Shown here in pieces: positions 42,501 to 46,100 of a stretch of DNA of 64,000 nt. The DNA comes from Octopus sinensis. Taxonomy: Eukaryota. Every line of letters begins with the position of its first letter. The stretch's first letter is position 1. Location: assembly GCF_006345805.1 (NCBI RefSeq), contig NC_043025.1, positions 2,418,001 to 2,482,000 of the forward strand, read 5' to 3'. Position numbers: made by a program.

Positions 42501-43138
42501 ATCCGATATGCAGCACCTTTAGTATGGCATGTTCCAACATCACAAAATTTTGGAGAAGACCAAGCCATATGTACACATCTTTAAATATTGCACAGATTTC
42601 ACCTCCTACAGTGCTCACTTCTCAAAGCTCTTAGTACCTGGAACATCCAAAATAGCAATCGTAAATGAAATGTTTCTACGTCCTTAGGACTCACTGTGTT
42701 CATTCTGCTGCCGATGTTATTGTTTCTTCTCCCGAGTGTTCACGATCGATCTGTTTTTGAGTAGGTTACTGAGTGTTACCTATGTGAAAGCACAGTCTCT
42801 CACCGTCCTTATTACAACATTTACCATCAACATCGCCATCCTCCTCCCCCTCATCATCATCATCAACATCATCTCGGCCATTTTCTCCTTGTTGGTGTTG
42901 TTGTTGTTGTTATTGTTGTTGTTCTTAACATAACGAAATACATTATAATCGAACCGAGTGAAAACGAGTTTATTGAGCGAGGTGCTTTTTGAAACGTCAA
43001 CTGACGAGAAACATCTGCAAAGAAAGATGCACCGCGGCCAATCGACCATTATCTCATCCGTGAGTGGCCGATTGAAGACGGGTTGAAACGGCAGTAATGA
43101 TTAATGTATCACGTAGAATCCATTTTCCATTTCCGTCA

Positions 43139-43180
<42 letters not shown>

Positions 43181-46100
43181 TGTATGAGTGTGTGAGTATA
43201 CGCTTCGACGTTGGTATGGTTGTGTGAAAACAATTTTGCTTCCGTATTCTGTCCCTCTGCGTGTACTCTGGTCTTCAGCCGAACAATCCCGTGTATGTTA
43301 GTTAATTGGATACAGGGTAACTTAGAAACATGTCGTATATATACGAAGTGGTATCATAAAGTTCCCGGCCGAGTTATGTTTAATAAAAGTAACTTATACT
43401 ACCTGAGTTTTAACTTCATTTCCTTCGGAAAAGTCGACTTGCGAAATAAGACACAAATATGAAACGTTTTCCTTTCTTTTTTTCCTTTTTTCACCTTTAA
43501 CGTCACATATACGGCTCCAGTTCTAACAGATCAATTACTCGGGGCAGCACGTTGAACGCCACCAACGCTCTGGCCGGGTCAATTCAATCCCCGCACATAT
43601 CTCTAAGTTTCTTATAGGTTTCCCTATCGACCACAATGACCTTCACACTCTCTTGGTGCACGTCATTGGACAACTTTTCCCTTATGATGTGCCTGAACTT
43701 TACGATTTCTTTCTCCACTTACTTGTTCTTAGAATACGTCACAAAATTCCATTTTTTCTTACCCCCTTTCGGTCTTCTCCTTTCTTCTTTTACTACTTTT
43801 CTTATTATAGGTTCCTCTATACACTTCTCTGAGTCTGAGACCTTCTCTTTCTCCGTCTTCACCTTTTCCATCTCACCCTCTTGTAGTTGAGTTCTTGAAT
43901 CTTCCTTCAATTCACCTGTCATCTTCATACTTGCTTCCTCCTTCTCTGACTCATTGTCACACACCTTCTTAATTATTTTTTCACTTTCCTTTCCCGCCTC
44001 ACTTTTATCATCTTTCTTTCTCGTTATCCCTTTCTTTCCCACCTCTTCTTTCCTCTTTTTCTGGTTAGTCTGTGGCGGACGTACTCTACCGCTCCTCCTT
44101 TTTCTTTCCACTAGCTTGGAATATTCTTCCGCTGTTTTCTCATTATTCTCTACTGTCAATGCCTGCTCGACACCCTCTTCAGTCTCTCTCTGCTCCCTCG
44201 GTGGACATCTCGCCTTCATGTGTCCCTCCTTGCCACACTCGAAACACACAAGCGGCCTGCCTTCCACCTTCCCTCTCATTGTAACACTATCTCCTCTGCC
44301 ATTCCGTTCATGTCCTCCACTTTAGCCTGGATTGTTAGCTCCAACCCACAGCCCCAGCAGCTTGTTTGCTCTGGTGGCCCTCAATATTCCAGCCTCGTCC
44401 TCCATGTTGTACACAATGGCCGTCACCAGACATGCCTCCTCCAGCTCAGGGGGAACCTGGCTCACCCAAACCCTCACCACACGTCCGCCGCAACAGGATG
44501 GCAGAAGAATCCATTCTTCTGAGCGGACCGCCTCCGTAGCATGCCTCATCGCTTCCTCCTCTGATGTGAAACGCACATCCACAGTTGCATACTCCCTGCA
44601 TCCTGTTCCGAAGGTTATCATCCTTTCATGCCTTCCAACATCCTCTCGATCCCCTCCACAGTTGCTATCTCGATCCTTCCTGTAGCGACCCTCACAGTCC
44701 TGTATGTCACTGTCTTCCTCATAACGCTGTTCACCAGCTCCTCGGGTGGTGTCAATTTCATCTCGCCTTCCCCACTCAGCAGCCTCTCGCCAGCCTTCAT
44801 CCTCCTGGCCTCGACCTCTACTTTAAAAGTCTCCAATGCTTCTCTCCCCGCTTCTCCTCCAGTAGCCCCCGCTGGCGCCTTTTCCATTTTCCTCAATGGG
44901 AAAAATCAACTCAACAAAACTTTAACGATATTAACAACGGTATCAACAACAGCAACAATCAACAATAACTTCACGTTCCACTCACAAATACAACTCAACT
45001 ACAACAACTCGACCTCAAAAACAACACCTATCAACTACAAACTTCTCTACTCAACTCGACTCTACTTCGACGTCTAGACTTCTCCCTCTATATCTACGTA
45101 TTGAGCTAGCCTACTTCATCGTCTGGGGGCGTCCACACAACACAAGTAAAAGAGAGAGGATTGGTACATACATACATACATACTTGCATATATACATATA
45201 TACCTAATGAAGAATAAGAGAATGGTTTCAGCGACTTTCCTTATTCTATATCAATGCAATTGTGTCTACAAATCACATCCGTAGTTCTTGATGAGATCAT
45301 ATAATTTACATCGTGTGTCATCACTACAGTTCCTTAAAGGCGGAACGTAGGACTTATTGAAATACTCACCTGAAAAGCCTGTTTTACACCTCTGATTGAT
45401 GGTAAGGATTACGCAATTTATTAATTATATCATCTGAACCATGTACAATGGTTGTGAAATCATGTATCAATTGTAGTATTATGGAATAAAGAATATCGTT
45501 TAATTCATTCCCTCTTATTCACCTCTGTTCAAAGACGAAAGCGAAAAATGAGAGAAACATAATTTCTCCACAAAGAAAAAACAAACGAGATACAACAACA
45601 GATATTCAAAACGCTTTAGTAGCAGTTTTCCACGCGGGTTTCGAAATCGCAAATCCGAATCGCCACACAATATCACCATACACATACCAGTTGCTGACGT
45701 CACCTAACTCCAGAACAATGAAATTTGACTTACAATCAAAATCGAACTTCAGCGAATACAACAAAATTACCCTTTATGAGAATCAAGCAACTGGAATGGC
45801 TGATGACCGTTCCCCACAGGTAAGCCAACCAGGCAGAATGAAAATCTTGACCACCAGAAAAATAAGACATCAACAAATATCAGATCCTTCACGGAAAAAA
45901 TCGTAAATACACCGGATTCCGAAAAACGCCTTCACAAGCAAAAGACCTGTACACGTCGGTAAGAGAATCACAGAAACTGTAAACAAAAACCCTTTTTTCA
46001 CTATCTTCATTTCTCCCTTGTTTTTCTCCCTCTTGACTCAGTATGGCCGAAACTTTGATACCCCACGTTTCTTATCGATCACTACTAACACTATTGAATG

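What the first reader, a model, noticed from the sequence alone, without database searches (positions are those of the whole stretch)
42798..43462. Paralogous cassette that keeps both intron flanks but has lost the LRR exon
Seen: 42798-42890 matches the sequence just upstream of the exon (22385-22474). It runs directly into a GTT tract and then 42931-43330, which matches the sequence downstream of the exon (23543-23940), followed by the same mariner insertion. The ~875 bp equivalent to 22475-23349, including the exon and both splice sites, is missing. Inference: an exon-bearing cassette was duplicated and one copy lost its exon. Loss of a symmetric 72-nt exon preserves the reading frame.
Basis: partly seen in the sequence, partly recalled or inferred. 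Interest (0 to 1): 0.85.

Follow-up and report, generated by a model that had tools for sequence, protein, structure and literature searches.

The report
Exon-less partial copy of intron flanks
A roughly 650-base stretch at 43 kb is a real but apparently inert partial copy of the non-coding DNA on either side of a leucine-rich-repeat exon 20 kb upstream, sitting next to transposon relics, and it looks like ordinary genome wear rather than a working element.

Summary
42798-42890 matches 22385-22474 (92.5% of 93 columns). 42898-43322 matches 23511-23929 (86% of 427). The 875 bases 22475-23349, which hold a 72-nt LRR exon (22579-22650) and both splice sites, have no counterpart at 43 kb.

The "downstream flank" is three things:
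- 209 bases found only in these two copies;
- a (GT)n tract;
- about 135 bases of a tRNA-like SINE family that has at least four other copies in the window.

A mariner relic begins only after the SINE. The 43-kb copy keeps about 100 bases of its end and has no transposase part.

The block has two ages. The unique flanks are 93-96% identical, but the SINE part is only 81.6% (Fisher p = 2e-4). A single duplication followed by a deletion is therefore too simple.

I read the block as a DNA-level ectopic copy from the 22-kb locus to the 43-kb site, anchored in the shared repeats. The exon was either skipped during copying or deleted later; I cannot tell which. I found no sign of function. Genome-wide copy number could not be checked. 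Interest is low.

The parts
42798..42890 (+). U': copy of the 90 bases that end 104 bases upstream of the LRR exon (source 22385-22474)
   Evidence: blastn 92.5% of 93 columns, E 7e-32; nhmmer E 1.3e-13
42889..42923 (+). (GTT)n tract, 11.7 units, counterpart of (GTT)11 at 23350-23382
   Evidence: TRF
42931..43139 (+). D-left': copy of 23543-23751; these are the only two copies in the window
   Evidence: blastn 91.9% of 209 columns; 93.3% ungapped; nhmmer finds only these two
43139..43194 (+). (GT)n microsatellite, counterpart of 23754-23803
   Evidence: TRF
43196..43344 (+). Diverged tRNA-like SINE copy ('D-right'), counterpart of 23805-23940 and 9029-9169
   Evidence: 81.6% identity to the 22-kb copy over 125 ungapped columns. 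Aligns with SINE-like copies at 33 kb and 46 kb. An HMM built from 4 other copies hits the 22-kb copy (E 1.3e-4) and the 9-kb copy (E 1.3e-3), but not this copy at E <= 0.01, so its membership rests on homology to those two.
43345..43441 (+). Short relic of the outer end of a mariner-like element (segment X); no coding part
   Evidence: 76% of 118 columns to 9146-9252, which continues into the mariner relic shared with 23971-24713
22385..22474 (+). U: source copy of the upstream flank, lying at the end of a TCA-rich tract
22475..23349 (+). 875 bases present only at 22 kb; 30.6% G+C; hold the exon and both splice sites
22579..22650 (+). 72-nt LRR exon (1 nt + 23 codons + 2 nt), pyrimidine-rich acceptor ending CAG, donor GTAAGT
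   Evidence: Pfam LRR_8 E 3.6e-4, below the curated cut-off; PDB phmmer best match LGR4, E 8e-7; chance controls
23350..23540 (+). (GTT)11, (TTC)32 and (ATT)18; the last two have no counterpart at 43 kb
   Evidence: TRF; alignment
23543..23751 (+). D-left: source copy
23805..23940 (+). SINE-like copy at the 22-kb locus
23945..24671 (-). Mariner-like relic; its outer-end segment X is largely deleted; a transposase remnant ORF lies at 23945-24373
   Evidence: Mos1 transposase E 4e-4 over 38 residues; no Pfam hit; 69% of 715 columns to 9327-10025. The right end at 24671 is inferred: blastn homology to the 9-kb copy runs to about 24690-24713, into the microsatellite.
9029..10013 (+). Third SINE-plus-mariner composite, without U or D-left

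Best explanation
42798-43441 is an inert partial paralogue of the non-coding DNA around the LRR exon at 22.5 kb. It was made by DNA-level copying from the 22-kb locus to the 43-kb site.

From left to right it holds:
- a 93-base copy of the upstream flank;
- a (GTT)n tract;
- a 209-base copy of the downstream flank;
- a (GT)n tract;
- a SINE-like repeat;
- about 100 bases of a mariner end.

The exon is absent because 875 bases (22475-23349) have no counterpart.

I think the most likely route is ectopic repair of a break at 43 kb. The repair was anchored in the (GT)n/SINE/mariner repeat that both loci already carried, and it copied outward into the unique flank of the 22-kb locus. This is the 'duplication-dependent strand annealing' type of event. 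The exon-bearing stretch was either jumped over during synthesis or deleted afterwards.

Shown: the homologies, their limits, the gap and the two different divergences. Inferred: the direction of copying, the repair mechanism and the lack of function.
For: 1. The homology is real, co-linear and on the same strand.
2. Direction. nhmmer with the 43-kb upstream piece finds 5 weak extra hits, 4 of them in the TCA-rich DNA at 20.3-22.3 kb, three of these just upstream of the 22-kb copy (22023-22089, 22087-22154, 22264-22324) and one at 20276-20325; the fifth is at 41386-41444. The 105 bases left of 42798 match nothing else in the window.
3. Two ages. Ungapped identity is U 95.7% (88 of 92), D-left 93.3% (194 of 208) and SINE part 81.6% (102 of 125), Fisher p 2e-4.
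4. In the SINE part the three copies are nearly equidistant: 81.6%, 77.2% and 79.2%. Of 128 ungapped columns, 85 are identical in all three, 17 have 22 kb = 43 kb, 9 have 22 kb = 9 kb, 8 have 43 kb = 9 kb, and 9 differ in all three. This is what is expected if the repeat at 43 kb is older than the flank copy.
5. [quoted passage not shown] That is the layout described for duplication-dependent strand annealing, where a downstream re-invasion leaves a gap in the new copy (PMC3276153, passages read).
6. No function is visible. The 43-kb copy has no exon or splice sites. It has no Rfam family or tRNA. Its RNA folds are not unusual (z-scores 0.47, 0.04 and -1.29). Its minus-strand ORFs are low-complexity, with no Pfam hit above cut-off.
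Against: 1. The microhomology expected at a template jump is weak. CTT ends the retained left side (22472-22474) and recurs at 23346-23348, one base before the right breakpoint. By my rough estimate, not computed, this is the order of one chance in twenty.
2. The lower identity of the SINE part could have another cause, such as gene conversion of one copy by other SINE copies elsewhere in the genome. In that case a plain duplication plus a later deletion would do.
3. The 22-kb and 43-kb composites share two small insertions relative to the 9-kb copy. They are therefore closer to each other than to the 9-kb copy, which also fits an old shared duplication.
4. Invasion between repeats only about 82-88% alike is inefficient.
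5. With only two copies of U and D-left there is no outgroup, so the polarity of the 875-base gap rests on the premise that the exon is a genuine old exon.
6. Genome-wide copy number is unknown.
Confidence: 0.7

Rival explanations
1. One reading: a whole exon-bearing cassette (flanks, exon, SINE and mariner) was duplicated once, and the 43-kb copy later lost 875 bases including the exon through an ordinary deletion. In its general outline this is a sub-case of my best explanation. It differs in saying that the exon was once present at 43 kb and that one duplication explains everything.
For: The flanks on both sides of the exon are present in the right order and on the same strand. The (GTT)n tract has about 11 units in both copies. 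The 22-kb and 43-kb composites share small insertions that the 9-kb copy lacks. Deletions of about 100 bases have clearly happened here: the 22-kb copy has lost most of segment X.
Against: A single event predicts one divergence. Instead, 18 mismatches in 300 columns of the unique flanks stand against 23 in 125 in the SINE part (p 2e-4). A further process is needed, either gene conversion between the two cassettes or from other SINE copies. No trace of the exon remains at 43 kb. No larger co-linear duplication surrounds the block.
Confidence: 0.3
2. U and D-left are the two ends of a dispersed repeat (a mobile element). The 22-kb copy either carries an insertion of 875 bases or is a longer family member that captured an LRR gene fragment. 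The 'exon' would then not be a working exon in place.
For: The window is crowded with short dispersed repeats and transposon relics. Only one LRR exon is detectable in 64 kb, so a gene context is not shown.
Against: D-left has exactly two copies in the window, and U has only low-complexity look-alikes. No terminal inverted repeats were found (output dominated by microsatellites). No target-site duplication beyond an imperfect 6-7-base similarity was seen on reading the junctions. There is no tRNA or Rfam hit. Both copies sit at the same position and in the same orientation next to the (GT)n/SINE/mariner composite, which independent insertions would not give. The exon has a consensus acceptor and donor and a full LRR motif; 0 of 300 simulated windows gave such a thing under strict criteria, which were set post hoc.
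Confidence: 0.15
3. Reverse polarity: the 43-kb arrangement is ancestral, and the exon-bearing 875 bases were inserted between U and (GTT)n at 22 kb.
For: There is no outgroup copy. The junctions carry an imperfect short direct repeat that could be read as a target duplication as easily as a microhomology. The 875 bases differ in composition from the flanks (30.6% G+C against 40-42%).
Against: No known insertion route delivers an exon with both splice sites and about 800 bases of intron without leaving element ends. U's weak relatives lie mostly around the 22-kb locus, not the 43-kb one. The 875 bases have no other copy in the window.
Confidence: 0.05

Closest known systems
Small intrachromosomal duplications made by ectopic double-strand-break repair (duplication-dependent strand annealing, Fiston-Lavier et al. 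2007, as described in PMC3276153; I read passages only)
   Same: [quoted passage not shown] The copy sits on the same chromosome in direct orientation. The copy has a gap relative to the template. There may be a small tandem duplication in the copy: three extra bases in U'.
   Different: The microhomology at the gap is weak and one base off. The anchoring repeats are only about 82% alike. The copy is very short (about 350 bases of unique DNA). The mechanism is inferred from one pair of sequences, with no outgroup.
Genes whose LRRs are each encoded by an in-phase exon of about 72 nt that multiplies by exon duplication (gonadotropin/LGR-type receptor genes; brown-algal ROCO genes: PMC11378527, passages read)
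   Same: The exon at 22579-22650 is 72 nt, has the same phase at both ends and encodes one LRR. Its best matches among solved structures are LGR4, decorin and Slit2 repeats.
   Different: Only one such exon is visible in 64 kb. The 43-kb copy has no exon, so it is not an exon duplicate in its present state. Membership of the exon in an LGR-type gene could not be tested.
Decayed or non-functional exon duplicates in introns (the notion of tandem exon duplication leaving dead copies). This is recalled general knowledge. My search listed papers on exon duplication and pseudoexons, but I read none of them.
   Same: Duplicated intron context near a short symmetric exon.
   Different: A dead exon duplicate normally still shows the exon sequence in degraded form. 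Here the exon is cleanly absent.

Membership tests
Intragenic exon (cassette) duplication | A second copy of the exon, intact or degraded | tested here: not met
   nhmmer with the exon plus about 40-50 bases on each side, and with the whole 875 bases, finds nothing at 43 kb. blastn with word size 7 gives the same result.
Intragenic exon (cassette) duplication | Homologous intron sequence on both sides, same order and strand | tested here: met
Intragenic exon (cassette) duplication | Both copies lie within the same gene | not testable with these tools
   No other exon was found in the window. No transcript data or annotated genome was available.
Duplication by ectopic break repair (DDSA/SDSA type) | [quoted passage not shown] | tested here: met
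   A (GT)n tract, a SINE-like copy and a mariner end lie at the right end of both loci.
Duplication by ectopic break repair (DDSA/SDSA type) | Gaps in the new copy bounded by microhomology | tested here: inconclusive
   CTT occurs at 22472-22474 and 23346-23348, one base away from the right breakpoint.
Duplication by ectopic break repair (DDSA/SDSA type) | The anchor repeat is older than the copied flank (a break in divergence at the repeat boundary) | tested here: met
   93-96% against 81.6%, Fisher p 2e-4. Other causes are possible.
Dispersed mobile repeat (for U and D-left) | More than two copies with unrelated surroundings | tested here: not met
   Only two copies in 64 kb. A genome-wide count was not possible, because no collection on hand holds animal genomes.
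Dispersed mobile repeat (for U and D-left) | Element ends: inverted repeats, target duplication, tail, or a tRNA-like head | tested here: not met
   The repeat finder output was dominated by microsatellites.
Mariner (Tc1/mariner) element, for 43345-43441 | Transposase coding sequence | tested here: not met
   The 43-kb copy has none. The 22-kb relic matches Mos1 transposase at E 4e-4 over 38 residues, with no Pfam hit.
Mariner (Tc1/mariner) element, for 43345-43441 | Terminal inverted repeats flanked by a TA duplication | tested here: inconclusive
   Local alignments of the two ends scored no better than shuffles. The ends abut TA/GT microsatellites.
tRNA-derived SINE, for 43196-43344 | Significant similarity to an independent set of family copies | tested here: inconclusive
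   An HMM of 4 other copies hits the 22-kb copy (E 1.3e-4) and the 9-kb copy (E 1.3e-3), but not the 43-kb copy at E <= 0.01. The 43-kb copy is tied in through its 81.6% identity to the 22-kb copy. ARAGORN and Rfam find no tRNA.
72-nt in-phase LRR exon | 72 nt, same phase at both ends, LRR consensus, canonical splice sites | tested here: met
   LRR_8 E 3.6e-4 (20.7 bits, below the 27-bit cut-off); LGR4 E 8e-7. Controls: 11 of 100 simulated windows pass loose criteria; 0 of 300 pass strict criteria that were set post hoc.

The most novel reading that the evidence does not exclude
The 43-kb block is the remains of a second, once-spliced LRR exon cassette of a large LGR-like receptor gene. The two cassettes, 20 kb apart, have exchanged sequence by gene conversion. 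That would explain why their unique flanks are much more alike than the neighbouring SINE. On this reading the number of LRRs in the receptor is being raised and lowered by cassette gain, homogenisation and loss, and some individuals or sister species may still carry an exon at 43 kb.
Probability: 0.2. Interest if true: 0.4.

Novelty: new member of a known kind. Interest (0 to 1): 0.15.

Why it matters
It matters little for function. The copy has no exon, no splice sites and no detectable RNA or protein feature.

Its value is as a worked example. A 'cassette that lost its exon' can instead be a short patch of flank copied next to a pre-existing repeat. The divergence of each sub-segment should therefore be compared before a history is inferred.

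If relatives showed an exon at this site, it would document the gain and loss of single LRR units in a receptor gene. That process is usually only inferred from exon structure.

Tried and rejected
- **Chance similarity:** rejected (E 7e-32 and 1.7e-127).
- **A larger segmental duplication around the block:** rejected. The blastn of 17-34 kb against 34-49 kb gave only scattered short repeats, not co-linear ones.
- **The whole 22385-24671 stretch as one element with inverted ends:** no support.
- **D-right as the mariner's own end:** this was my first reading. I dropped it when the segment aligned with a tRNA-like SINE family.
- **A structured RNA in D-left:** fold z-scores of 0.47, 0.04 and -1.29 are not unusual. 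Rfam and ARAGORN found nothing in the window.
- **Coding potential on the minus strand of the block** (ORFs 42780-43100 and 43054-43353): the translations are low-complexity. One sub-threshold Lactamase_B match (19.7 bits against a cut-off of 22.7) is taken as chance. No hit.
- **A splicing origin for the gap on either strand:** read from the sequence, the gap boundaries do not carry GT..AG or its complement.
- **Further LRR exons in the window:** pattern scans found one convincing candidate only. A look-alike at 37634-37675 lies inside a reverse-transcriptase relic and has no acceptor.
- **Six-frame Pfam scan of 41.8-46.6 kb:** the tool does not take frames with stops, so only stop-free ORFs were scanned.

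**Not done**
- A genome-wide copy count, orthologous loci and transcripts. No animal genome collection is on hand; genome contigs holds only bacteria and archaea and was not used.
- The closed protein and contig collections were not needed.
- The organism was not determined. I do not take the window for human, given Helitron ORFs, mariner relics, SINEs with TA tails and 37.6% G+C.
The single exon was searched on its own.
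Full report
**The window.** It is 64,000 bases with no N and 37.6% G+C. It is full of microsatellites and transposon relics:
- Helitron-type Rep/helicase ORFs at 27.7-30.2 kb on the minus strand;
- reverse-transcriptase pieces at 37.8-38.5 kb and 52.3-52.8 kb;
- a zinc-knuckle ORF at 43719-44321.

The first 17 kb recur at 49-64 kb at about 95% identity. I do not take the window for human. The organism was not determined.

**Checking the observation.** In the blastn of 42500-44500 against the window:
- 42798-42890 ~ 22385-22474, 92.5% of 93 columns, E 7e-32;
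- 42898-43322 ~ 23511-23929, 85.9% of 427 columns, E 1.7e-127.

Both matches are on the plus strand and in the same order.

TRF finds (GTT)11 at 23350-23382 and (TTG)11.7 at 42889-42923, so the GTT tracts correspond. The 22-kb copy also has (TTC)32 and (ATT)18 at 23381-23540.

Homology begins exactly at 22385/42798. The stretch 22475-23349 (875 bases) has no partner. nhmmer with these 875 bases, and with the exon plus about 40-50 bases on each side, finds nothing at 43 kb.

**The exon.** 22579-22650 is 72 nt: one base, 23 codons, then two bases. The acceptor is pyrimidine-rich and ends in CAG; the donor is GTAAGT.
- The translation matches Pfam LRR_8 at E 3.6e-4. At 20.7 bits it is below the 27-bit cut-off, as expected for a single repeat.
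- In the PDB it best matches repeats of LGR4 (E 8e-7), decorin and Slit2.
- An LRR pattern inside an open 72-nt AG..GT frame turned up in 11 of 100 second-order Markov simulations of the window under loose criteria. Under strict criteria it turned up in 0 of 300, but I set those criteria after seeing the exon.

The exon is probable but not proven. It is the only convincing LRR exon in the window. I searched it on its own and built no joined model.

Exons of 72 nt, in phase, each encoding one LRR, are a known gene architecture. They occur in gonadotropin-receptor-type genes and in brown-algal ROCO genes (PMC11378527, passages read).

**What the 'downstream flank' is made of.** A third locus at 9 kb decides this. 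It shares the last 125-135 bases of the flank (23808-23939 ~ 9032-9152, 70%). It also shares a further segment X with the 43-kb copy (43324-43441 ~ 9146-9252, 76%). And it shares the mariner relic with the 22-kb copy (24027-24690 ~ 9327-10025, 69% of 715 columns). It does not share D-left or U.

The shared 125-135 bases align with a tRNA-like SINE family that has other copies at 3231-3429, 26572-26786, 33140-33349 and 46752-46940. An HMM built from those four copies alone hits the 22-kb segment at E 1.3e-4 and the 9-kb segment at E 1.3e-3. It does not reach the 43-kb segment at E <= 0.01.

The mariner identity rests on a 38-residue match of the minus-strand ORF 23945-24373 to Mos1 transposase, E 4e-4. 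Pfam gave no hit.

The mariner begins only after the SINE tail. The 43-kb copy keeps about 100 bases of the mariner end and then stops at 43441, and nothing further downstream in the window continues it. The 22-kb copy has lost most of segment X. 'The same mariner insertion' is therefore only partly right.

**Two ages in one block.** Ungapped identity between the 22-kb and 43-kb copies:

| Segment | Identity | Matches |
|---|---|---|
| U | 95.7% | 88 of 92 |
| D-left | 93.3% | 194 of 208 |
| SINE part | 81.6% | 102 of 125 |

U plus D-left against the SINE part gives Fisher p = 2e-4.

In the SINE part the 9-kb copy is 77.2% identical to the 22-kb copy and 79.2% to the 43-kb copy. Of 128 ungapped columns:
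- 85 are the same in all three copies;
- 17 unite 22 kb with 43 kb;
- 9 unite 22 kb with 9 kb;
- 8 unite 43 kb with 9 kb;
- 9 differ in all three.

The SINE/mariner composites at 22 kb and 43 kb are thus only a little closer to each other than to the 9-kb one, while the unique flanks are far more alike. One duplication of one age does not give this pattern.

**Direction.** The 43-kb upstream piece has 5 weak extra hits, 4 of them in the TCA-rich DNA at 20.3-22.3 kb: three lie just upstream of the 22-kb copy (22023-22154 and 22264-22324) and one at 20276-20325; the fifth is at 41386-41444. The 105 bases left of 42798 and the 279 bases right of 43441 match nothing else in the window. The 22-kb locus therefore looks like the native context and the 43-kb block like the copy. 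If the exon is a genuine old exon, U and D-left could not have been laid down on both sides of it by one copying run, which also points from 22 kb to 43 kb.

**Mechanism.** I favour repair of a break at 43 kb, at or beside a pre-existing (GT)n/SINE/mariner composite. The repair used the like composite at 22 kb as the template.

This is the layout of duplication-dependent strand annealing. In that model a break in a repeat is repaired off an ectopic copy and so duplicates its flank. A re-invasion further along the template leaves a gap bounded by microhomology in the new copy (PMC3276153, passages read).

Under this reading the exon may never have been at 43 kb. The support is the break in divergence at the repeat boundary, the repeat at one end and the abrupt other end. 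The weak point is the microhomology. CTT closes the retained left side and recurs one base before the right breakpoint, which is little better than chance.

**The alternatives.**
To fit the two ages it needs either later gene conversion between the two cassettes, which would homogenise U, exon and D-left before the deletion, or conversion of one SINE copy by others elsewhere in the genome. I give it about 0.3, within a total of about 0.7 for 'local DNA-level copy from 22 kb'.
- A mobile-repeat origin for U and D-left. It has no support in the window: two copies, no element ends, no tRNA or Rfam hit. It cannot be excluded without the genome, and I give it about 0.15.
- Insertion of the exon-bearing 875 bases at 22 kb. 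This seems unlikely, at about 0.05.

**Function.** I found none. The 43-kb block has no exon, no splice sites and no RNA family. Its RNA folding is not unusual (z-scores 0.47, 0.04 and -1.29). It has no protein family above cut-off. That a 72-nt in-phase exon can be dropped without a frameshift is true, but it has no bearing on a copy that cannot be spliced.

**Unchecked.** Genome-wide copy number, orthologous loci, population variation and transcripts all remain unchecked. I did not consult supplementary files of the two papers, and they do not bear on the claims made here.

**Verdict.** The similarity is real and the gap is real. The 'cassette that lost its exon' story is one of two near-equal readings. 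The object is an ordinary, inert by-product of repeat-rich DNA. Interest is low.

Noticed in passing
9029-10013, 23805-24671, 43196-43441: A SINE-like copy is followed after the same short TA-rich tail by the same mariner-like relic at three loci. The left limit of the 9-kb copy coincides with the SINE's 5' end. It is unexplained whether the composite moves as a unit, was duplicated segmentally, or reflects repeated mariner insertion into SINE tails.
   Followed up: partly
22387-22394, 22474-22481, 42800-42807: The 8-mer TCACCGTC brackets the upstream flank U at 22 kb. Its second copy supplies the last retained base and the first seven bases of the missing stretch. The 43-kb copy has only the first one. 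By my rough, uncomputed estimate this would arise by chance about 1 time in 1000 at these positions. Its meaning is unknown.
   Followed up: partly
1-17075 and 48972-64000: A large direct duplication at about 95% identity (88% in its last part), interrupted by non-shared DNA (about 4.2-10.9 kb against 54.6-58.7 kb) and by one small inverted piece (4072-4240 against 54584-54417).
   Followed up: no
3231-3429(+), 26572-26786(+), 33140-33349(-), 46752-46940(-); fragments at 39533-39582, 49756-49790, 1254-1292: A family of tRNA-like SINE copies ending in TA/TG microsatellites. ARAGORN and Rfam do not call them.
   Followed up: partly
27728-30186 (-); 57798-58349 (+): Helitron-type ORFs: Helitron_like_N (E 4e-9), PIF1 helicase (E 5e-45) and the Pif1 2B domain. 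A second 2B-domain fragment lies at 58 kb.
   Followed up: no
43719-44321 (-): A 200-residue open frame with a CCHC zinc knuckle (E 1e-4), gag-like, lies immediately right of the finding. The neighbouring frames gave no family.
   Followed up: partly
42130-42688, 13660-14216, 60976-61531: An unnamed repeat of about 557 bases, 81-83% identical between copies, ends 110 bases left of the finding. Its open frames match no Pfam family.
   Followed up: partly
37814-38467 (-), 52276-52758 (+): Reverse-transcriptase fragments (RVT_1, E 5e-8 and 3e-14).
   Followed up: no
23381-23540: Back-to-back (TTC)32 and (ATT)18 arrays are present only in the 22-kb copy. They are probably microsatellite growth after the copying event.
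   Followed up: no
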